64,000 bases of DNA, taken from positions 60,946,001 to 61,010,000 of the forward strand of contig NC_073386.1 of the NCBI RefSeq assembly GCF_028641065.1. The letters run 5' to 3'. The stretch is from Leucoraja erinacea. Its lineage: Eukaryota. Shown here in pieces: positions 14,409 through 53,722 of this stretch. The stretch's first letter is position 1. The number at the start of each line of letters is the position of its first letter. A program made the position numbers and the translations under genes. Below the pieces are notes generated by a model that ran no database searches, had not been told where the DNA came from, and worked only from the letters and a program-made list of their open reading frames with translations.

Positions 14409-14508
14409 NNNNNNNNNNNNNNNNNNNNNNNNNNNNNNNNNNNNNNNNNNNNNNNNNNNNNNNNNNNNNNNNNNNNNNNNNNNNNNNNNNNNNNNNNNNN
14501 NNNNNNNN
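14409..14508. other. Assembly gap (100 N); other gaps at 57104-57368 and 62428-62706
   Basis: Runs of N. Confidence 1.
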
Positions 14509-14654: not shown

Positions 14655-17600
14655 TATAACCATATAACCATATAACCATATAACAATTACAGCACGGAAA
14701 CAGGCCATCTCGACCCTTCTAGTCCGTGCCGAACACATAATCTCCCCTAGTCCCATATACCTGCGCTCAGACCATAACCCTCCATTCCTTCCCATCCATA
14801 TAACTATCCAATTTATTTTTAAATGATAAAAACGAACCTGCCTCCACCACCTTCACTGGAAGCTCATTCCACACAGCTACCACTCTCTGAGTAAAGAAGT
14901 TCCCCCTCACGTTACCCCTAAACTTCAGTCCCTTAATTCTCAAGTCATGTCCCTTGTTTGAATCTTCCCTACTCTCAGTGGGAAAAGCTTTTCCACGTCA
15001 ACTCTGTCTATCCCTCTCATCATTTAAAAAACCTCTATCAAGTCCCCCCTTAACCTTCTGTGCTCCAAAGAATAAAGTCCTAACTTGTTCAACCTTTCTC
15101 TGTAACTTAGTTGCTGAAACCCAGGCAACATTCTAGTAAATCTCCTCTGTACTCTCTCTTTTGTTGACATCCTTCCTATAATTAGGTGACCAAAATTGTA
15201 CTCCAGAATTGGCCTCAACAATGCCTTGTACAATTTTAACATTACATCCCAACTTCTATACTCAATGCTCTGATTTATAAAGGCCAGCACACCAAAAGCT
15301 TTCTTTACCACCCTATCTACATGAGATTCCACTTTCAGGGAACTGTGCACAGTTATTCCCAGATCCCTGTGTTCACCTACATTCTTCAATTCCCTACCAT
15401 TTACCATGTACGTCCTATTTTGATTTGTCCTGCCAAGATGTAGCACCTCACACTTATCAGCATTAAACTCCATCTGCCATCTTTCAGCCCACTCTTCCAA
15501 CTGGCATAAATCTCTCTGTAGACTTTGAAACTCTACTTCATTACCCGCAACCCCACCTATCTTAGTATCATCTGCATACTTACTAATCCAATTTACCACA
15601 CCATCATCCAGATCATTGATGTACATGACAAACAACAGTGGACCCAACACAGATCCCTGTGGCACCCCACTCGTCACTGGCCTCCAACCTGACAAACAAC
15701 CATCCACCATTACTCTCTGGCATCTCCCATTCAGCCACTGTTGAATCCATCTTGCTACTCCACCATTAATACCCAACCATTGAACCTTCTTAACCAACCT
15801 TCCATGAGGAACCTTGTCAAAGGCCTTACTGAAGTCCATATACACAACATCCACTGCTTTACCCTCATCAATTTCCCGAGTAACATCTTCAAAAAATTCA
15901 AGAAGATTAGTTAAACATGACCTTCCAGGCACAAATCCATGTTGACTGTTCCTAATCAGACCCTCTTTATCCAGATGTTTATATATATTATCTCTAAGTA
16001 TTCTTTCCATTAATTTGCCCACCACTGACGTCAAACTAACAGGTCTATAATTGCTAGGTTTACTCTTAGACCCCTTTTTAAACAATGGAACAACATGCGC
16101 AGTACGCCAATCCTCCGGCACTATTCCCGTTTCTAATGACATTTGAAATATTTCTGCCATAGCCCCTGCTATTTCTACACAAACTTTCCTCAATGTCCTA
16201 GGGAATATCCTGTCCAGACCTGGAGACTTATCCACTTTTATATTTCTCAAAAGTGTCAGTACTTCTTTTACTTTGAACCTCATAGTTTCCATAGCTACTC
16301 TACTTGTTTCCCTTACCTCACATAATTCAATATCCTTCTCCTTGGTGAATACCGAAGAAAAGAAACTGTTCAATATCTCCCCCATCTCTTTTGGCTCTGC
16401 AGATAGATGTCCACTCTGACTCTCTAATGGACCAATTTTATCCCTCGTTATCCTTTTGCTATTAATATAGCGGTAGAAACCCTTCGGATTTACTTTTACC
16501 TTACTTGCCAAAGCAACCTCATATCTTCTTTTAGCTTTTCTAATTTCTTTCTTAAGATTCTTTTTACATTCTTTATACTCCTCCAGCACCTCATTTACTC
16601 CACGCTGAATATAATTATTGTAGATTTCCCTCTTTTTCCGAACCAAGTGTCCAATTTCCCTTGAAAACCATGGCTCTTTACAATTTTTACGATTTCCTTT
16701 CAACCGAACAGGGACATAAAGATTCTGTACTCTTAAAATTTCACCTTTAAATGTACTCCATTTCTCTTCCACATCTTTCCCATAAAACAAACTGTCCCAA
16801 TTTACTCCTTTTAAATCCTTTCGCATCTCCTCAAAGTTAGCCTTTCTCCAATCAAAAATCTCAACCCTAGGTCCAGTTTTGTCCCTCTCCATAATTATAT
16901 TGAAACTAATGGTATTGTGATCACTTGACCCGAACTGTTCCCCAACGCATACCTCTGCCACCTGACCCATCTCATTTCCTAACAGGAGGTCCAGTACCGC
17001 CCTTTCTCTAATAGGTACTTCTATGTATTGTTGCAAAAAACTATCCTGCACACATTTTACAAACTCCAACCCATCCAGCCCATTTACAGAATGTGTTTCC
17101 CAGTCTATGTGTGGAAAATTGAAATCTCCCACAATCACTGCCTTGTGCTTACTACTAATATCTGCAATCTCCTTACATATTTGCTCTTCCAATTCTCGCT
17201 CCCCATTTGGCGGTCTATAATACTCCCCTATAAGTGTTGCTACCCCTTTCCCATTTCTCAGTTCCACCCAAATAGCCTCCCTAGACGAGCCCTCTAATCT
17301 ATCCTGCCAAAGCACTGCTGTAATATCTTCCCTGATAAGCAATGCAACACCTCCACCTCTTGCCCCTCCAATTCTATCACACCTGAAGCAACGAAATCCT
17401 GGAATATTTAGTTTCCAATCACAGCCCTCCTGCAACCATGTTTCACTGATCGCCACAACATCATACTTCCAGGTGTCAATCCAGGCTCTAAGTTCATCCA
17501 CTTTTCTTACAATGCTCCTAGCATTAAAATATACACATTTAAGAAACCCACCCTCTCTTATTCTCTGATTATTTTCTTTTTCTACTCTCTCCCCTACATT

Positions 17601-18893
17601 TTGGGTCAGAGTGCTACCATTCTCTGCCCCCTGCTTCACACACTGACTGCTAGCTTTCCCAATTTGAGTCCCTCCCCCCAACCATACTAGTTTAAAGTCT
17701 CCCCAGTAGCCTTTGCAAATCTCCCCGCCAGGATATTGGTCCCCCTTGAGTTCAAGTGCACCCCGTCCTTTCTGTACAGGTCGCACCTTCCCCTAAAGAG
17801 GTCCCATTGATCCAGAAACTTGAATCCATACCCACTGCACCAGTCCTTCATCCACTCATTTATCCTCCACCTCGCTCCATTCCTACTCTCACTGTCGCGT
17901 GGCACAGGCAGTAATCCTGAGATTGTTACCTTTCTAGTCCTTCTCCTTAACTCTCTACCTAACTCCCTAAATTCTTCTTTCAGGACCTCTTCTCTTTTTT
18001 TTACCTATGTCGTTGGTACCTATATGCACCACAACCTCAGGCTCCTCTCCCTCCCATTTCAGGATTTCTTGGACACGTTCAGACACATCCCTGACCCTGG
18101 CACCAGGGAGGCAAACTACCATCCGGGACTCCTGTCTGCGTCCACAGAATCGCCTATGCGACCCCCTGACTATAGAGTCCCCTATTACAATTGCCCTCCT
18201 CTTCTTTTCCTTACCCTTCTGAGCAACAGGACCGGTCTTTGTGCCAGAGGCCCGGCCGCTGTCGCTGCCCCCAGGTAGGCTGTCTCCCCCACCCTTACTC
18301 AAGCATGAGTACTTATTTTCAAGGTGTACAGCCACCGGGGTACTCACCAGTCCCTGCCTCTGCCCGTTGCCCTTCCTAACTGTGACCCAGTTTTCTGTCT
18401 CCCGTGGTCTTGGAGTGACCACCTCCCTGTAACTCCTTTCTATGACCTCCTCGCTCTCCCTGAGCAGGCAGAGGTCATCGAGTTGCTGTTCTAGGTTCCT
18501 GACACGGTCCCTTAGGAGCCCCATCTCGACGCACCTTGCGCAGATGTGGAAGTCTGGAGGGCACTCCGACTACATGACCTCCCACATCTGACATCCAGAA
18601 CAGTAAACTGCCCTGGCCTTCATTCTCCCCCTTATCCAAATACAATAAAGCCTTACCGGGATACAAGCCAATCAGCTGCTTCCTCTGGTCCTCTTCCACC
18701 AATCAGAGGCTTCCACCAGAATCAGAATCCTTCTCTGGAAGTGAGATGGAACGTTGCAGATTTGGGTAACTCACAGCTCCAGGTAAGTCCTCCTCTCGCC
18801 AACGGCTCCCCGGGCCTCTGTAGAAGCAAACCCCGCGCTGTTTTTATACTCACAGCTCCAGGTAACTCCTCCTCTCACCAACGGCTCCCCGGA
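14655..18893 (-). mobile_element. Near full-length CR1 LINE
   Basis: ORF1 ~17687-18600 has SGNH/esterase motifs (VIGDSIVR, VVHIGTND, DGVHLN) and a frameshift. ORF2 15024-17786 has APE endonuclease (YFNARS, SETW, GDFN, SDH) and RT (GVPQGSVLGP, YADD). The 3' end is an 8-bp (TATAACCA)n tail and the 5' UTR has a direct repeat. Confidence 0.95.
15024..17786 (-). CDS. CR1 ORF2, endonuclease-reverse transcriptase, with a C-terminal lesion
   Basis: 920-aa ORF with EN and RT motifs; out-of-frame patch EYNFGHLIIGRMSTK near the C-terminus. Confidence 0.9.
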   Translation of the reverse strand: MRPVQKGRGALELKGDQYPGGEICKGYWGDFKLVWLGGGTQIGKASSQCVKQGAENGSTLTQNVGERVEKENNQRIREGGFLKCVYFNARSIVRKVDELRAWIDTWKYDVVAISETWLQEGCDWKLNIPGFRCFRCDRIGGARGGGVALLIREDITAVLWQDRLEGSSREAIWVELRNGKGVATLIGEYYRPPNGERELEEQICKEIADISSKHKAVIVGDFNFPHIDWETHSVNGLDGLEFVKCVQDSFLQQYIEVPIRERAVLDLLLGNEMGQVAEVCVGEQFGSSDHNTISFNIIMERDKTGPRVEIFDWRKANFEEMRKDLKGVNWDSLFYGKDVEEKWSTFKGEILRVQNLYVPVRLKGNRKNCKEPWFSREIGHLVRKKREIYNNYIQRGVNEVLEEYKECKKNLKKEIRKAKRRYEVALASKVKVNPKGFYRYINSKRITRDKIGPLESQSGHLSAEPKEMGEILNSFFSSVFTKEKDIELCEVRETSRVAMETMRFKVKEVLTLLRNIKVDKSPGLDRIFPRTLRKVCVEIAGAMAEIFQMSLETGIVPEDWRTAHVVPLFKKGSKSKPSNYRPVSLTSVVGKLMERILRDNIYKHLDKEGLIRNSQHGFVPGRSCLTNLLEFFEDVTREIDEGKAVDVVYMDFSKAFDKVPHGRLVKKVQWLGINGGVARWIQQWLNGRCQRVMVDGCLSGWRPVTSGVPQGSVLGPLLFVMYINDLDDGVVNWISKYADDTKIGGVAGNEVEFQSLQRDLCQLEEWAERWQMEFNADKCEVLHLGRTNQNRTYMVNGRELKNVGEHRDLGITVHSSLKVESHVDRVVKKAFGVLAFINQSIEYRSWDVMLKLYKALLRPILEYNFGHLIIGRMSTKERVQRRFTRMLPGFQQLSYRERLNKLGLYSLEHRRLRGDLIEVF

Positions 18894-30195: not shown

Positions 30196-30335
30196 CTTGA
30201 CAACAGTGACGAAGGTACTGTAGAGGAAACTGATAATGAACAGGAGGGCGAAGGCAGCAACTGTGAGCACATTGTCATCTCCATCCAAGTCCCCTGGCTC
30301 CACCTTCCCTTCCTCACCTGTCAATTCTGTGCCAG
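30196..30335 (-). CDS. IGHW: IgW transmembrane exon TM1
   Basis: (AGT)ELTGEEGKVEPGDLDGDDNVLTVAAFALLFIISFLYSTFVTVVK: acidic spacer plus the conserved antigen-receptor TM motif. Donor AAG|GTAACG; in-frame acceptors give exon starts at 30335 or 30326. Not in the ORF track. Confidence 0.9.
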
Positions 30336-31922
30336 CTTCAGGACAAATGAGAAGGTGAGACAGTTAGTTTGCCGCCGATGTTTTGTGAAGATCAACAACG
30401 TGTGAATAAAATGAAGGCAACAGGAGGACAGGAAGACAGGAGGCTTGGGTTAGTTCCACCGTTCAATGATATGTGGAGATCTATCACCAGCTCCACTGAG
30501 CTGACTTTCCCCCACATCCATTATCATCTCGTATAGTCAAACTCTGCAATCTCAGATATAAAATCACCTTCACACCTGGAACCAAATGCTAACTGTGGAA
30601 GGCAATTCCAAACTTCCATGAACCTCTGATAGACACAAAAAGCTGGAGTAACTCAGTTGCACAGGCAGTATCTCTGGAGAGAAGGAATGGGTGAGGTGTC
30701 GCATCGAGACCCTTCTTCAGATGCCATGACCCACTTCATGTAGCATGGCTATCTCTAACTTTTAGACCCTGTACTTTGTATAGAGTTGGATTTCCATAAA
30801 TCAGGGAGATCATTTGTAACCCAGGGAGCACTGTATAGAACTAAAAAATAATTCCTCCTCATCTAGTTAGTTTAGTTTATTGTCACGTGCACCAAGGTAC
30901 AGTGAAATGCATTTGTTGCATGCTAACCATTCAGCGGAAAGGCAAAACAAGATTACAAATGAGTCATTCACAGTGTATACATACATGATAAGGGATTAAT
31001 GTTTAGTACAAGGTAAAACCAGTAAAGTCCAATCAAAGATAGTCCAAGGGTCTCCAGTGAGGGAGATAGTAGTTCAGGACCACTCTCTGGATGTGGTGGG
31101 ATGATTCAGTTGCCTGATAACAGCTGGGAAGAAACTGTCCCTGAATGTGGAGGTGTGTAAATAGATCTTCACAGGGTAATCTATTCTGTTAGCTCCCATT
31201 AACTTTGTGAAAACATCAAACAAAACTTCCTTTAGCCTTGTAAATGACAACTTGTTCAGCATCGTGAAAGTAAGCATGCAGGTAGGTACAGCAGGCAGTG
31301 AAGAAAGTGAATGGCATGTTGGCATTCATAACAAGAGGAGTTGAGTATAGGAGCAAACGTCCAGAAGCGAAAAATACTACAAAAAGTTCATTGCCCAGTT
31401 CATCGCTGGCATTGACCTCCCCACCGTCGAAGAGATCTATCATAGTCGCTGCCTCAAAAAGGCAGCCAAAATCATCAAGGACCCACACCATCTTGGCCAC
31501 ACACTCATCTCACCATTGCCATCAGGAAGAAGTTACAGGAGCCTGAAAACTGTAACGTCCAGGTACTGGAACAGCTTCTTCCCTACAGCCATCAAGCTAT
31601 TAAACACAATGAATAAGCTCTGAGCTCCGAACTGCAAAAGACTCTATTATTGTTTGTTATTTGCACTATTTGTTATTTATTAAACTTTTTCTTTTTTTCT
31701 CGTTCCTCGTTATGCACTATGTTTACATATTCACATATTCTGTTGTGCTGCAGCAAGTAAGAATGTCCTTGTCCCGTCTGGGACATATGACAATAAAACA
31801 CTCTTGACTCTTCTTGACTCACTCACACACTGCAACACCTGTCCTTCAGTACTAAACTTGCCTGGGCCTATTTTGTGACGGGGTAAAAGATGTGATGATT
31901 AGAGTGAATCCCAGCACCGTAC

Positions 31923-32201
31923 CTTGAAAGCTTTTCACTTCCCGGCTGATACTGGTGTTCGAGGGGGGATGAGACACTGCACAGCCGAAGACTGAGCCTT
32001 TTTTCCAATCCTCTGAACTCACATTCAGGAAGTGGCTGGCACTGAAAGTCCCCCCTTGCTCCAGAGCAGTCGGTGTAGCGCTGGTGGTGGAGGAGATCGG
32101 GGCTCCGTCTTTCTCCCAAGTGACGTTTATGAGGTCCGGGTAGAAACCAGAGAGCACACACTCGAGGATGGCTGTGTGGCTGCGCTTGGTCTCTTGGTGA
32201 G
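31923..32201 (-). pseudogene. IGHW: Duplicated CH4-like exon (CH4') lacking its splice acceptor and first ~14 codons
   Basis: HQETKRSHTAILECVLSGFYPDLINVTW...FGCAVSHPPS...KSFQ, ~70% aa identity to CH4. Donor G|GTACGG is intact; the ttccag|VEPNKPEVRLLLPA segment is absent. Confidence 0.85.
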
Positions 32202-32224
32202 TAGATGTGAGAACCTCTTCCTCA

Positions 32225-32573
32225 AGGGCCTGTCCCACTTACACAACTTTTTTGGCGACTGCCGGCACCCGTCATAGGTCGTTACAGGTCGCCGAAAAAT
32301 TTAAACATGTTGAAAATCCAGCGGTGACCAGCACAAGGTATGACTATTTGACTCAAGGTACGACTACTCACGACCATACTGGCTTCACCCCGCTACATGT
32401 CACCAGGTTGTTGCCTCCATGGGCGTGAGTAGTCTCCTCAGTCGCCCAAGGAGTCGTAACGCCTTTCAGGTTGCCACTGAATTTTCAACATGTTGAAACT
32501 TTTTGGCGACCTACAATGACCTATGACGGGTGCCGGCCGTCACCGAAAAAGTTGCGTAAGTGGGAAAGGCCCT
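32225..32573. mobile_element. PIF/Harbinger-type MITE between CH3' and CH4'
   Basis: TIR AGGGCCTGTCCCACTT / AAGTGGGAAAGGCCCT with a 3-bp TCA duplication (32222-32224 and 32574-32576). Confidence 0.9.
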
Positions 32574-32619
32574 TCATGGTAACTAATGTTGGCCGTATCA
32601 TTGTCGATCTCTCGCCCAC

Positions 32620-32922
32620 CTTTGGCACTTTCTGTCCGTGCTGACACTGGTGAGGATGATGGAGATCGTTGGGCAGAGCACACAACCTCCACCCCGCTGG
32701 TCCACTCCTCCACACTGCTCCGGAGTTTACTGCTCACTCTGTCTTGGGTACTTTCTCCTCTCGGTTGGTGGGTCACAGCCCCTGTAGTTCTCTCCCTTCC
32801 GCTCACTTGCCAGTAGACTTGGACCTGGCTCAGATCAGCGCCCATTACCACGCACACCACAGTAGCGGTCTTGTTGATCCAAATCTCTTCAGTGGAGGGG
32901 TTTTGGATAAAGACAGACAATT
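32620..32922 (-). CDS. IGHW: Duplicated CH3-like exon (CH3') downstream of the tailpiece
   Basis: Acceptor tttctcatctgcag|, donor G|GTGGGC, 303 nt like CH3, open frame. About 62% aa identity to CH3 (63/101 by hand count). Confidence 0.88.
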
Positions 32923-37763: not shown

Positions 37764-38149
37764 TTACACACAAGATTTAAAGCTGTCAGTCAGAACAAGT
37801 GAGACATTGACCAGGGTGGGTTTGCTGTGAGATTTATTGATGCTTCTGAATAGACTGGTTGTGATGGATCCATGTCCCACAACACAGGAGAAGGTGGTGC
37901 CACAGTTCCAGTCCTCTGGAGAAACCTTCAACTGACTGGTCATGGTGTTCCACCCATTCCTGGTGTCCTTGGTCACGGGCTGGCTCACGATCCCTGTCTT
38001 CAGAAGGGTGTCGTTGGCCATCCAGGCCACATAGATGTCTGCAGGAGAGAATTTGGTGACCAGGCACGTCAAGGTAGCAGTCTTATCCGTCTCCACCTCA
38101 TCCAATGAAGGGGGGAGGAGGTAGACTTGAGGACGTATCTCAACTCCAT
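37764..38149 (-). CDS. IGHW: IgW CH6 exon with contiguous secretory tailpiece
   Basis: Acceptor tctctctgttcccag|; DGVEIRPQVYLLPPS...LTCLVTKFSPADIYVAW...FSCVVGH...; tailpiece KPTLVNVSLVLTDSFKSCV* with an NxS glycan site and penultimate Cys. Confidence 0.94.
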
Positions 38150-41164: not shown

Positions 41165-41485
41165 CTGTCAGCTTCTTCAAAGATCTGCTCTCCTGTGTTG
41201 GCAAACTCTTGTCCTCCACAACACAGGTGTACAGAGCCCCACTCTCCCACTCTGCAGCGGGGACCGTCAGTCCGCTGGTGATGGTGTCTGTACCTCCGAT
41301 CCTCTCTACACCACGAGTTGTCACCCCGTCTTCTCTCTTCATTTCATTCACTTGCCAGGTGACCCTGAATCCCTCTAAATCACCGTGAACCACCTTACAC
41401 TGAATGGTGGCTGTCTTGTTGATCCAGATCTCTTCGAAGGAAGGTTTGCTTAAAGTGACCGAGGGGCGGGTATCTGAACATTCAT
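41165..41485 (-). CDS. IGHW: IgW CH5 exon
   Basis: Acceptor gatttctcccag|; DECSDTRPSVTLSKPSFEEIWINKTATIQC...W...EWESGALYTCVV...KKLT; donor G|GTACGT. 321 nt. Confidence 0.92.
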
Positions 41486-42481: not shown

Positions 42482-42799
42482 CTTGGATGTTCTTCACAAC
42501 CTTCGTGATGATGGTGTTGGAGGCGCGATGATACACTGTACAATTGAAACGTGAGCCTGACTTCCAATCCTCTGTACTCATGGTCAGGAAGTGGCTGGCA
42601 CTGAAAGTGCCCCCCTGCTCCAGAGCAGTTGGTGCAGCACTGGTGTTGTTGGAGATCAGGGCACCGTCTTTACTCCAAGTGACGTTGATGAGGTCTGGGT
42701 AGAATCCAGAGACCACACACTCGAGGGTGACCTTGTGGCTACGCTTGGTCTCTTCGTGTGCTGGAAGCAGCAGTCTGACTTCAGGTTTATTTGGCTCAA
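42482..42799 (-). CDS. IGHW: IgW CH4 exon
   Basis: Acceptor ttttgctctgttccag|; VEPNKPEVRLLLPAHEE...LECVVSGFYPDLINVTW...FNCTVYH...KNIQ; donor G|GTAGGC. 318 nt. Confidence 0.92.
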
Positions 42800-43341: not shown

Positions 43342-43644
43342 CTTTGTTATGGTTGGTCCGCGCTGACACTGGTGAGGATGATGAAGATTGTTGGGCGAAG
43401 CACACAAACTCCACCCCGCTGGTCCACTCCTCGACGCTGGTCCGGAGTTCACTGGTCACAGGGTTTTGGGTGCCTTCATGGCTCGGTGTACGGGTCATAA
43501 CTCCTTCACTTCTCTCCTTTCCTCCCACCTTCCAGGTGAGATGGACCTGGCTCGGATCACTACAGATCACTGAACACACCAGCGTAGCGGTCTTGTTGAT
43601 CCAAATCTCTTTCATGCCAGGATTTTGAATGAAGACGGCCAATG
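43342..43644 (-). CDS. IGHW: IgW CH3 exon
   Basis: Acceptor tttctgatccacag|; ALAVFIQNPGMKEIWINKTATLVC...W...EEWTSGVEFVC...NHNK; donor G|GTGGGC. 303 nt. Confidence 0.9.
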
Positions 43645-44032: not shown

Positions 44033-46321
44033 TTATGGAAAGGCAGGGCAGAAATCCAAACAGGTGTCTCATAAAAGAACTTTAAGATGTTTATGACATC
44101 ACATAAAAGACTGATCAATGGCAGATCAAACTATACACTGGCTAGATTTATTGCAAACAGAATAGTAGAAAAACTTGTGTTAAATAGCAGGTTGAGTGTT
44201 TTGACTGAAAAAAACAGAACAAAGGATCCATCAACTGGGATTTGACTCTCTTTCCCATCACCATGATCAGCTGGTACATTACAAGGGCACAATTTGATAT
44301 GTGCTTTGCTTGGAACCCCTACTGCATCGATTAGTAATACTGAGCAACAGGAATGAGAAAAGCAACTTTTTTCCCTGTAGGCCAAGCCTGGGATTCCCTC
44401 AGTTTAAGAATGTCACATGCTGATATCACAGCCTTACTCTGACCATGTGTCTCACCATCTCTGAAACCTTCACCACAAACACAACCTTCAGTAAAGGTGT
44501 CAACTCTGGGCACTCGTAAGCCTGCACTCCTTTCACCTTTGTACCACTTGCTGTGTCACATTGCAGTGTTGCCCACAAACACCAAAACTCACTCAGCCAT
44601 AGACTGGTGTCAGTTTAGTGTGACTGTGCTCCAGTGAAGACTTTGAGGCGTTTCAGTAATTGATAGAAATGATCAGAAATAAATTAGTGGCTGACTCTCC
44701 AGCGACAGCAGAGCAAATCATAAATGGTTAGAAGTATCAAGGTCCCTCTCCTGCTGCAGATTGGGATGAAATTCTGCATTAGATGTATTTTCCCATTTCA
44801 CATCAGAATCATTGGGCGAGGAAGAGAATGATTTATTCATTCATTGCCCCTGACTGGCCTGCACTGCCACTTGTCTTCTGAAGCAGCATCATGAGTCTAG
44901 TTGCACTCAGCTCACTCTTGTGTGTGCACTGTTTACACACTTAGTCACTTGGACCACATGAGCTGATTTTGCTCTCAAACACTTATTGTGGAGTGTGATT
45001 AGGTTTGTGTCAGAATTGAAACTTTCAATGAGCCTGGAGATCAAAGCCTTCAGCTGCGTAGAAAGCAGAGTCTGTCTGACAGGAGACATAACATTTGTCA
45101 ATGTAAGATGTTGTCTATTTCACAACCCCTCCTTCTTTAAGCAAAATGGTGAGCAAATTCCTTTCAAAAATAGTTATGTGCATGGTATTAGTGTGGATGA
45201 CAGTTGTTGCAGTGTCATCAGAAATTTATAAGCCTAGTTTAACAGTGTGCAATGTTTTTGCTTTGTGAATCTTGTTTTAATCAGCAATGTGATATTGTTA
45301 AACATGTGTGTTTGCAAGATGCTCAATCCCGTCCCTTATCAGTGACAGTCGTGTAGTTCCACCATCGCGGTGTCGGGGGGAAACCGCCTCCTATGAAACC
45401 TGGCAGAGTATGGATACTCTCCATCCTGTCAAATGCTGGTATCTTCCACAAGAGACATTTTGTCTTGCTCATCCTTAGATGATTATAACCAAACACGTCC
45501 ATTCCTTGCAACATTCCTTGCATTCCCTGAGTTTCTCCTTTGGACTGAGGTTTGTGTCCCGGAGGTGGGTTAATAAATCTGTGGCAATTTGTGCTAACTA
45601 CAGTTTTCACCCAAAGCCAGTATAGGACAGGAGACCGGTTAGAGCCCTAGATCTTGCCTCACCAGTTTGCATTTATTATAGGGTCATCCTATTTTTTACT
45701 GAGCCACTTTGACATTTCACACCGTTTAGAAACATAGAAACATAGAAATTAGGTGCAGGAGTAGGCCATTCGGCCCTTCGAGCCTGCACCGCCATTTAAT
45801 ATGATCATGGCTGATCATCCAACTCAGTATCCCGTACCTGCATTCTCTCCATACCCTCTGATCCCCTTGGCCACAAGGGCCACATCTAACTCCCTCTTAA
45901 ATATAGCCAATGAACGGGCCTCAACTACCCTCTGTGGCAGAGAGTTCCAGAGATTCACCACTCTCTGTGTGAAAAAAGTTCTCCTCATCTCGGTTTTAAA
46001 GGATTTCCCCCTTATCCTTAAGCTGTGACCCCTTGTCCTGGAGATGTTTACCTTAAACATCTCCTGCCTTTCAATCTATGGGTGGTCCTTGCTGACTAGA
46101 ATCTGAGCATGAATAAATCTGGCCAGTGGCACTGGGATGTGAAGCAACAATGTCTGCAAATGAATGAATACACAGGCAACTAGTGGAAGGGAGAGGGAGA
46201 CAGCTTGAATTGGGTATTCTCCCCACTCTGGTACACTTTGATCCCAGTAGATACCAGGGGTTGGATTTGAATCTTATAAATGGGTAGTAATAATAGAATG
46301 ACAAATTCCATACGCAGCCAA

Positions 46322-46449
46322 TTACTTTATTTCACACTTTCCTGCCCAACAATGATACTGCTGGGTAGAACCATCTGAGAATGTCACTTTGAGATTACTC
46401 TGGTAGATGAACTTCGGCAGACACTTCGAACAGCCGGGACATTCTCCAC
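46322..46449 (-). CDS. IGHW: Cys-rich secretory exon of short-form IgW/IgX (GGECPGCSKCLPKFIYQSNLKVTFSDGSTQQYHCWAGKCEIK*)
   Basis: Acceptor tccatttccag|, phase 1, 5 Cys, stop TAA at 46324-46322. It resembles the skate IgX short-form tail as I recall it. Not in the ORF track. Confidence 0.88.
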
Positions 46450-46687
46450 CTGGAAATGGAAGATTAATTGATTTAAATGTTAAGAGATTTTTACCTCCTG
46501 TGTTGAGGAAAGAGGAGATTCACATATTCCCAGTCTGTGTCCTCAGTATTTATCAGCATAAGATTATGCCGACCACGATAAACTGCTTCACTTTATCCAG
46601 GATCAGACAATACTTTAAAGAGTGTGGAGATGAGTTCAAAAATAATCCAGGCACTGACATTTCAATGAAAGGGAAAGGGCAATCTAC

Positions 46688-47198
46688 AGGTGAGTTGGAC
46701 AGTTTGGGTGAGTGGGCAGATGCATGGCAGATACAGTTTAATGTGGATAAATGTGAGGTAGCAAAAATAGGAAGGCAGATTACTATCTTAATTGGGTCAA
46801 GTTGGGAAATGGGGAAGTACAATGGGATCTCGGGGTTCTTGTTCATCAGTCAATGAAAATAAGCATGCAGGTACTGCAGGGAGTGAAGAAAGCGAATGGC
46901 ATGTTGGCCTTTATAACAAGAGGAGTTGAGTATAGGAGCAAAGAAGTCCTTCTGCAGTTGTACAGGGCCCTAGTAGAGACCACACCTGGAGTATTGTGTG
47001 CAGTTTTGGTCCCCTAATGCGTGGAAGGACATTCTTGCTATTGAGGGAGTGCAGCGTAGGTTCATCAGGTTAATTCCCTGATTGGCGGGACTGTCATGTG
47101 CTGAGAGAATGGAGCGGCTGGGCTTGTATACCCTGGAGTTTAGAAGGATGAGAGGATATCTTATTGAAACATATAAGATTATTAAGGGTTTGGACACT
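46688..47198 (+). mobile_element. Doubly truncated CR1 fragment between CH1 and the short secretory exon
   Basis: EWADAWQ...KKANGMLAFI...LYTLEFRRMRG; it ends abruptly ~47 nt from the CH1 donor. Confidence 0.88.
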
Positions 47199-47245
47199 TT
47201 AGTTCTATCATCAGCTTTAAATGGACAACAAAATCTCACACTAAC

Positions 47246-47551
47246 CTTGAAGCTTCGAGAACGCCGTTATTACCATGTTGTCCGGCTTGGATCCTGCCTT
47301 GCAGTAGTAGGTTTTCCTGTTCCAATCTGCTACAGGGACTCGCAGCAAGCTGCTCATTGTGTACTTGTTGTTTTGTCCCAACACTGGTGGGTAATTTGTG
47401 ATTCCATCGTTGATGACCCCACAGCTGGTGGACCATGTCTGATTGATGACCTCAGGCAGGTAGTCCTTGACCAGACAGAGGATGCTGATCTCTTGTACAG
47501 ATTCTGTGTTGCAGGAAGAGGTGATGTGGACTGAAGGCAAAACCACATCCT
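47246..47551 (-). CDS. IGHW: IgW CH1 exon
   Basis: Acceptor tttccatttcag|; EDVVLPSVHITSSCNTES...ILCLVKDYLPE...W...YYCKAG...KLQ; donor G|GTTAGT. 306 nt, phase 1-1, C1-set motifs, and an N-terminal Cys suitable for light-chain linkage. Confidence 0.93.
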
Positions 47552-52125: not shown

Positions 52126-52173
52126 CTGAAGTCACTGTCAGCGAGGTTCCTGCACCCCAGTACTCAAGATAGT
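52126..52173 (-). CDS. IGHJ: JH segment (YLEYWGAGTSLTVTS)
   Basis: WGxG motif and phase-1 donor TCAG|GTAAG. Confidence 0.95.
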
Positions 52174-52538: not shown

Positions 52539-52604
52539 AGTTTTTGTTCAGCTCTCCACCGCCGTGGGCCAGTATACACGGTGATTCACCGCCGCTCACA
52601 AACT
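52539..52604 (-). other. IGHD: D2 segment (10-nt core TATACTGGCC, 52567-52576) with RSS12 on both sides
   Basis: Plus strand: AGTTTTTGT-12 nt-CGCCGTG-core-CACGGTG-12 nt-TCACAAACT. Both heptamers are variant but keep the essential CAC. Confidence 0.88.
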
Positions 52605-52931: not shown

Positions 52932-53010
52932 GGTTTTTGTATTGAGGAAGTCCCATCTCTCACACTGTGCCACCCGTATAGTCACAGTGATTCACCGCCG
53001 TACAATAACC
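52932..53010 (-). other. IGHD: D1 segment (13-nt core ACTATACGGGTGG, 52970-52982) with 5' RSS12 and 3' RSS22
   Basis: Plus strand: GGTTTTTGT-22 nt-CACTGTG-core-CACAGTG-12 nt-ACAATAACC. This is the classic elasmobranch D1 12/22 configuration. Confidence 0.95.
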
Positions 53011-53218: not shown

Positions 53219-53257
53219 GGTTGTTGTACCGGCCCGGCCCCGCTTCCTCTCACTGTG
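53219..53257 (-). promoter_or_regulatory. VH 3' recombination signal sequence, 23-bp spacer
   Basis: Minus strand: CACAGTG (53257-53251), 23 nt, ACAACAACC (53227-53219). Confidence 0.95.
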
Positions 53258-53554
53258 TCTGCCGCACAGTAATAGGTGGCCGTGTCGGCCAGACTCAGGC
53301 GGGTCATTTGGAGATAGACGTTGCTGCTGTCCTTGGAAACAGTGAATCGGCCGCTGAAGGCAGGCGCGTATTCTTTGCTGCCATCCCCAACACCACCGCC
53401 ACCCACTCCAGCCCTTTCCCGGGGACTTGTTTCACCCAATGCACGTAGTAGGTGCTGAGGCTGAACCCGCTGGTTACACAGGTCAGTTTGAGGGACTCTC
53501 CGGACTTTGCCACCTCGGTCGGGGTCTGATTCAGCACGACCGCGGATCGAACGC
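53258..53554 (-). pseudogene. IGHV: Germline IgW VH segment with a 1-nt frameshift in CDR2 (real lesion or assembly error)
   Basis: Acceptor ttttattggcag| then [12 protein letters not shown]...[34 protein letters not shown] in one frame, and [42 protein letters not shown] in another. The shift is at TTGGGGAT (~53383-53390). Both Cys and the core Trp are conserved. Confidence 0.92.
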
Positions 53555-53676: not shown

Positions 53677-53722
53677 CTGGCAGACAGGACAGAAGGAGAC
53701 AGAGATAAGCAGCGACCCCCAT
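53677..53722 (-). CDS. IGHW: IgW heavy chain leader exon ([16 protein letters not shown])
   Basis: ATG at 53722, hydrophobic signal peptide, 46-nt exon ending in phase-1 donor G|GTGGGT. A 122-nt intron leads to the V exon, which supplies GVRS. Confidence 0.93.

What the first reader, a model, noticed from the sequence alone, without database searches (positions are those of the whole stretch)
46322..47551. CH2 is missing: CH1 is followed directly by the Cys-rich short secretory exon
Seen: only ~800 bp separate the CH1 donor from the short-tail acceptor, and ~510 bp of that is a CR1 piece truncated at both ends. I find no additional Ig C exon there or elsewhere in the window. Established: short IgW/IgX is V-CH1-CH2-tail. 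Inference: a deletion removed CH2. All junctions are phase 1, so the cluster could still make a Fab-like V-CH1-Cys-tail secreted chain, a 5-C-domain long form and CH2-less membrane forms.
Basis: partly seen in the sequence, partly recalled or inferred. Interest (0 to 1): 0.7.

Follow-up and report, generated by a model that had tools for sequence, protein, structure and literature searches.

The report
Skate IgW gene copy lacking CH2
One of three IgW antibody gene copies in this skate genome lacks the exon for its second constant domain through a likely inherited 2.1-kb deletion, so it would make shortened antibody chains, but two further breaks make a decaying spare copy more likely than a new antibody type.

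Summary
Confirmed. In this minus-strand IgW (IgX) cluster CH1 (47246-47551) lies 796 nt from the Cys-rich secretory exon (46322-46449), with no CH2 in the window. Both sister clusters of the genome (C944, C909) have CH2; against C944 (97-98% identical, a likely paralogue) exactly 2129 bp are gone, joined at a 3-bp microhomology inside a pre-existing CR1. Public contigs support the junction only indirectly. All joins are phase 1, so V-CH1-tail and 5-domain chains would be in frame. Best reading: a real germline deletion in a redundant, likely decaying copy (0.68); a working CH2-less antibody remains possible (0.25). The junction sits flush on a cryptic 23-RSS-like site, and the sister clusters show germline V(D)J joins, so RAG may have cut it (post hoc, about 0.25). 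No expression shown here. The scan reported CH2-less skate IgW before on two other genomes (unchecked notes).

The parts
53677..53722 (-). Leader exon (ATG at 53722)
   Evidence: matches the leader of P0006/P0005
53258..53554 (-). VH exon; one base short in CDR2 near 53385-53388, giving a stop near 53304-53306 before the RSS
   Evidence: run X1 holds a window-type CDR2 with one more base, in frame (record 3)
53219..53257 (-). V 23-RSS, intact (heptamer 7/7, nonamer 8/9)
52970..52982 (-). D1 with 12-RSS and 22-RSS
52567..52576 (-). D2 with two 12-RSS
52126..52173 (-). JH (WGAG motif) with 23-RSS and GT donor
47246..47551 (-). CH1 exon, C1-set domain, 87% to little skate IgX cDNA P0006; 4 Cys, one of them private (47423)
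47195..47197 (.). Deletion junction: 3-bp microhomology; 2129 bp of C944 (126684-128812) including CH2 are missing here
47195..47233 (+). Cryptic 23-RSS-like site flush with the junction (heptamer 4/7, exact 23 spacer, nonamer 6/9)
   Evidence: post hoc observation
46689..47197 (+). CR1 remnant, antisense to the gene; present longer in C944, absent in C909
46322..46449 (-). Short secretory exon, 42 codons, 5 Cys, 93% to the tail of P0006; polyA-like hexamers at 45800 and 45677
43342..43644 (-). CH3 exon, open, phase 1
42482..42799 (-). CH4 exon, open, phase 1
41165..41485 (-). CH5 exon, open, phase 1
37764..38149 (-). CH6 exon with long-form secretory tailpiece
32620..32922 (-). Extra CH3-type exon (CH3') behind the secretory end, open
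31923..32201 (-). Extra CH4-type exon (CH4'); 58-bp deletion removed its acceptor and first 39 coding bases
30196..30335 (-). TM1 exon, open, phase-1 acceptor; TM2 not located

Best explanation
This IgW cluster lacks CH2 through a 2129-bp deletion that is likely inherited rather than an assembly error, and it is likely a redundant, decaying copy that would at most leak in-frame CH2-less chains. Shown: the cluster shares an ~80-kb block with C944; a CR1 inserted between CH2 and the secretory exon before the two split; one deletion then ran from 49 nt behind the CH1 donor into that CR1. Inferred: repair was end-joining at a 3-bp microhomology (about 0.75; RAG cutting about 0.25); the CH1 donor now would splice to the next acceptor in use (tail, CH3, CH3' or TM), all in frame; the tail form would be a Fab-like V-CH1 chain with 5 tail cysteines, still needing a light chain, and the long form would have 5 C domains. 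Inferred: because other clusters supply normal IgW, the loss was tolerated and further lesions (CH4' acceptor, V frameshift in this haplotype) accumulated.
For: Clean junction with non-homologous ends, no N, 96.5% and 98.4% flanks to C944. CH2 in 2 of 3 clusters and in 17 of 17 database proteins with an IgW-type CH1 among 160 examined, including P0005 (Amblyraja), which has the same unusual CH1 end as the window, so absence is derived. C944 is a likely paralogue: both flanks diverge from C10 and its far flank is single-copy. Run X3 holds the window's private CH1 bases (record 14, 1 difference in 117, depth 35 vs 67) and its record 13 ends exactly at 47195, where a simulated k=31 graph forks only if the deleted form is present. 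Two more lesions: CH4' acceptor loss, absent in the three sister exons aligned, and the V frameshift. The five CH1 changes private to the window after removing shared ones are all replacements but do not exceed neutral expectation (P 0.06 for number, 0.28 for ratio). No database protein matches the window's CH1 or V at 100%.
Against: The V frameshift has no independent support: X1 holds the window-type V in frame, and the similar 1-bp loss at the end of C944 CH1 is not listed in 4 of 4 runs, so such indels may be assembly errors. RSS, J, splice sites and all six secreted-form exons are intact and carry 4 replacement and 3 silent private changes outside CH1. No listed contig bridges the junction (tables swamped by CR1). 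An unchecked note on another genome reports a likely CH1-to-CH3 splice.
Confidence: 0.68

Rival explanations
1. A working CH2-less IgW: the V frameshift is an assembly error or a private allele, the cluster rearranges (or receives a VDJ by intercluster switching) and makes a Fab-like V-CH1-Cys-tail secreted chain, a 5-C long form and a V-CH1-TM receptor that are kept by selection.
For: All joins phase 1; RSS and J intact; in-frame window-type V in X1; deletion seemingly shared by a second haplotype (X3) and noted on two other genomes (unchecked); CH2 loss is viable elsewhere: IgM1gj (PMC4279169 passage), rodent IgD (PMC5568218 passage); switching between shark clusters.
Against: CH4' acceptor is also lost; 4 of 4 proteins with the tail have CH2 and 0 of 17 lack it; whether X1's in-frame V lies on a CH2-less cluster was not shown (X1 lacks the window's private CH1 bases); no sign of positive selection.
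Confidence: 0.25
2. Mechanistic rival for the break: RAG acting in germ cells cut at a cryptic 23-RSS behind CH1 and at a CAC in the CR1 and made a precise hybrid joint, which itself creates the 3-bp CAC overlap.
For: Both ends start with CAC on the + strand and the kept end has an exact 23 spacer and a 6/9 nonamer; 2.7-3.6% of CAC sites in three regions reach that, 1.4-2.0% with the ACA start. Sister clusters show germline joins (C944 V-D1 and J shortened by 4 nt at its heptamer; C909 D2-J). Germline RAG activity and a germline hybrid joint are described in sharks (PMC2193153 passages; PMC2193156 abstract).
Against: Noticed post hoc; the partner CAC has no nonamer (1/9) so no 12/23 pair; heptamer only 4/7; no N or P bases; 3-bp microhomology is common in ordinary end-joining (own knowledge); the 58-bp deletion has no such signal.
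Confidence: 0.25
3. Assembly artefact: a mis-join or collapse between paralogous clusters dropped CH2.
For: Multi-copy locus with CR1 at the junction; two unsupported 1-bp losses suggest imperfect polishing; no bridging contig listed.
Against: The ends are not copies of a repeat, no gap, no orphan third CH2 in the genome; contig end at exactly 47195 in X3 together with window-private CH1 bases.
Confidence: 0.05

Closest known systems
Skate IgX / elasmobranch IgW short secreted form (P0006 little skate cDNA AAA49546.1; P0009 Raja eglanteria; P0005 Amblyraja model)
   Same: Leader, V-D1-D2-J cluster, CH1 (80-89%) and Cys-rich tail (85-93%)
   Different: All three have CH2 between CH1 and tail; this cluster has none in its DNA
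IgW long forms (6 or 8 C domains) and membrane forms (2 or 4 C), made by alternative splicing (PMC4279169, PMC5192425, PMC6795676, passages)
   Same: CH3-CH6, tailpiece, extra CH3'/CH4' and TM1 are present
   Different: Forms would have 1 or 5 C domains, odd numbers not listed in the passages read; the cause is a genomic deletion, not splicing
Nurse shark IgM1gj and rodent IgD
   Same: Heavy chains that lost the second C domain
   Different: They are expressed and keep Fc domains (and a hinge in rodent IgD, recalled); expression here is not shown and the short form would have no Fc domain
Germline RAG joins in shark and skate Ig clusters (PMC2193156 abstract; PMC2193153 passages)
   Same: Sister clusters carry such joins; the junction lies flush on an RSS-like site
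   Different: Known cases use true RSS at V, D, J; here it would be a cryptic site in the C region without a 12-RSS partner

Membership tests
IgW (IgX) heavy-chain gene cluster | Minilocus V-D-D-J-C with 12/23-compatible RSS | tested here: met
IgW (IgX) heavy-chain gene cluster | C exons orthologous to IgW C domains with long-form tailpiece | tested here: met
   CH1 87% to P0006; CH3-CH6 91-93% to P0003
IgW (IgX) heavy-chain gene cluster | IgW-specific Cys-rich short secretory exon | tested here: met
   93% to P0006 tail
IgW short secreted form (V-CH1-CH2-tail) | CH2 between CH1 and the tail | tested here: not met
Functional IgW cluster | Open V exon | tested here: inconclusive
   frameshift in the assembly; in frame in run X1
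Functional IgW cluster | Complete membrane exons | tested here: inconclusive
   TM1 open, TM2 not located, CH4' acceptor lost
Functional IgW cluster | Rearranged, spliced transcripts | not tested
   no RNA run was laid on the CH1-tail interval; see Tried and rejected
RAG-made hybrid joint | Break exactly at a heptamer border | tested here: met
RAG-made hybrid joint | A 12-RSS and a 23-RSS partner | tested here: not met
   partner CAC has nonamer 1/9
RAG-made hybrid joint | Site is cleaved by RAG | not testable with these tools
   needs a substrate assay
Heavy-chain-only antibody (IgNAR type) | No CH1-type light-chain-binding domain | tested here: not met
   CH1 is present and open

The most novel reading that the evidence does not exclude
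RAG, active in skate germ cells, cut a cryptic signal behind CH1 and removed CH2, creating an expressed IgW variant: a natural Fab-like antibody (V-CH1 plus a five-cysteine tail that disulfide-links it into multimers) and a 5-domain long form, i.e. germline RAG remodelling a constant region into a new antibody format.
Probability: 0.07. Interest if true: 0.78.

Novelty: new variant of a known kind. Interest (0 to 1): 0.32.

Why it matters
IgW/IgD is the most plastic antibody class and its function is still open. A CH2-less cluster that is expressed would be a natural domain-deletion experiment: it would show whether the Cys-rich tail can work without any Fc domain and what CH2 contributes. If the break was made by RAG it would extend germline RAG activity from V(D)J segments to constant regions. 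If the copy is simply decaying, it is an ordinary example of birth-and-death turnover among cartilaginous-fish Ig clusters.

Tried and rejected
No RNA holder listed by the run search; this says nothing on expression. X17 (RNA by guess) gave two V pieces with 4 differences each and nothing across CDR2: uninformative. X3 and X6 show no window-type CDR2: a hole proves nothing. The junction lay was swamped by CR1 contigs (250,102 pieces not shown), so no bridging record was seen, and the CH2 state of X1's cluster is unknown. AlphaFold of P0006 on a 3-sequence alignment gave mean pLDDT 46 and under 50 over the tail: not used; no fold search or complex job was run. P0024 has five C domains but reads as IgNAR (single V, no IgW CH1; label from my recall), so it is not a CH2-less IgW. 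C944 as an allelic haplotig: rejected on flanks; one flank query was a repeat and uninformative. An excess of 1-bp indels as an error signature: 12 indel events, 6 of 1 bp, against 173 private substitutions in 12,657 aligned bases, not decisive. Positive selection on CH1: not significant. TM2 pattern search found no exon shared by the three clusters.

Full report
What the region is. The window (G000:C10:60946001-61010000) holds one unrearranged immunoglobulin heavy-chain cluster on the minus strand: leader, V, D1, D2, J with 12/23-compatible RSS, CH1, a short Cys-rich secretory exon, CH3-CH6 with tailpiece, an extra CH3'/CH4' pair and TM1. CH1 is 87% and the tail 93% identical to the little skate IgX cDNA P0006, so this is IgW. 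P0001, labelled Leucoraja erinacea by the database, matches the exons of sister cluster C944, so the animal is likely a little skate.

The observation. The CH1 donor and the tail acceptor are 796 nt apart with no N. CH2 from either sister cluster finds only other C domains in the window at 24-36%. In the genome CH1 and the tail region have 3 copies (C10, C944, C909) but CH2 has 2. All 17 of 17 proteins with an IgW-type CH1 among 160 examined continue into CH2.

The deletion. Against C944 the window lacks exactly 2129 bp (C944:126684-128812), from 49 nt behind the CH1 donor to inside a CR1; the two ends share three bases and nothing else. The CR1 is complete at its 3' end in C944 and absent in C909, so the order is: CR1 insertion, duplication into C10 and C944 copies, deletion. 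C10 and C944 are collinear over about 80 kb at mostly 95-98% with 88 and 85 private substitutions in 12,657 bases; both flanks diverge and the far C944 flank is single-copy, so C944 is likely a paralogue, not the other allele. The Amblyraja model P0005 has the same unusual CH1 end as the window and has CH2, so the loss is derived.

Real or artefact. No listed contig bridges the junction, because CR1 contigs swamped the lay. Indirect support: run X3 holds the window's private CH1 bases at about a third of the depth (record 14, one difference in 117 bases), and its record 13 stops exactly at 47195; a simulated k=31 graph of the three clusters forks there only when the deleted form is included. 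X3 differs from the window at a few bases, so it is likely another haplotype. Two unchecked notes of this scan report CH2-less skate IgW on other genomes; I could not test them and they may not be independent. I put artefact at 0.05.

What it would make. Exons are multiples of three with phase-1 ends, so CH1 could join the tail, CH3, CH3' or TM1 in frame. The short product would be V-CH1 plus 42 residues with 5 Cys: Fab-like, light-chain dependent, without an Fc domain; the long product would have 5 C domains. This is inference from anatomy; no transcript was shown. Reviews list 2, 4, 6 or 8 C domains for secreted and 2 or 4 for membrane IgW (PMC4279169, PMC5192425, PMC6795676; passages).

Signs of decay. 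V is one base short in CDR2 and stops before its RSS, so junctional diversity cannot rescue it. CH4' has lost 58 bp with its acceptor, unlike the three sister exons aligned. Against decay: run X1 holds a window-type CDR2 in frame (record 3, depth 22), so the frameshift is private or an error; the like 1-bp loss in C944 CH1 is not listed in 4 of 4 runs; RSS, J and the secreted-form exons are intact. X1 lacks the window's private CH1 bases, so it is a different haplotype or species and its CH2 state is unknown. Shark VDJ can be expressed with the C region of another cluster (PMC4279169 passage), so even a dead V does not silence the C exons. Private CH1 changes (5 replacements, one a new Cys) do not exceed neutral expectation.

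How the break arose. The shared three bases read CAC on the + strand, and the kept side is a heptamer-like 7-mer, an exact 23-nt spacer and a 6/9 nonamer; 2.7-3.6% of CAC sites in three regions reach this. The geometry is that of a hybrid joint. Both sister clusters carry germline joins, and germline RAG activity with a hybrid joint is described in sharks (PMC2193153 passages; PMC2193156 abstract). But the partner site has no nonamer, and I saw the pattern after the fact; ordinary end-joining stays more likely (about 0.75 to 0.25, my estimate).

Comparison and verdict. It is an IgW cluster by every homology test, not a member of the 2-domain short form, and it resembles IgM1gj and rodent IgD in having lost the second domain. 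Six searches showed no CH2-less IgW in what I could read, but five primary papers were not held. Best explanation: real germline deletion in a redundant, likely decaying copy (0.68); working CH2-less antibody 0.25; artefact 0.05. New variant of a known kind; interest 0.32.

Noticed in passing
G000:C944 ~135350-134560 (L014): V is joined in the germline into the 3' heptamer of D1, which is left broken, and J is 4 nt shorter right at its heptamer; this cluster likely cannot rearrange normally.
   Followed up: partly
G000:C909 ~68850-68930 (L018): D2 and J are joined in the germline while V and D1 keep their RSS.
   Followed up: partly
G000:C944:98953-123265: CH3/CH4 are tandemly duplicated (8-C long form) and the membrane-side CH3'/CH4' pair occurs four times.
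   Followed up: no
G000:C944 ~128866: CH1 ends one base short (phase change); not listed in 4 of 4 runs laid, so possibly an assembly error.
   Followed up: partly
window 30196-32922: A CH3'/CH4' exon pair lies between the secretory end and TM1 in all three clusters; likely membrane-form domains. In the window CH4' has lost its acceptor.
   Followed up: partly
window 47251-47271: The CH1 3' end resembles Amblyraja P0005 more than the sister clusters although CH3-CH6 are 98-99.7% identical to C944: old polymorphism or patchy gene conversion.
   Followed up: partly
P0006 versus C10, C944, C909: The published little skate IgX cDNA matches none of the three assembled clusters exactly, while X3's main type shares its tail and CH1 changes; a further cluster or allele is likely missing from the assembly.
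   Followed up: partly
window 15024-17792 (-): 922-codon open frame with endonuclease and reverse transcriptase domains, 93-94% like a copy in C909: a young non-LTR element next to 100 N at 14409-14508.
   Followed up: no
G000:C25:22.30-22.98 Mb, C15:44.81 Mb, C1460, C1433, C50: Many other C1-set exons (arrays on C25), probably other Ig or TCR loci.
   Followed up: no
window 47133, 47101, 46874, 46985 (-): The antisense CR1 remnant offers acceptor-like and donor-like sites that could compete with the tail acceptor (simple consensus scan).
   Followed up: no
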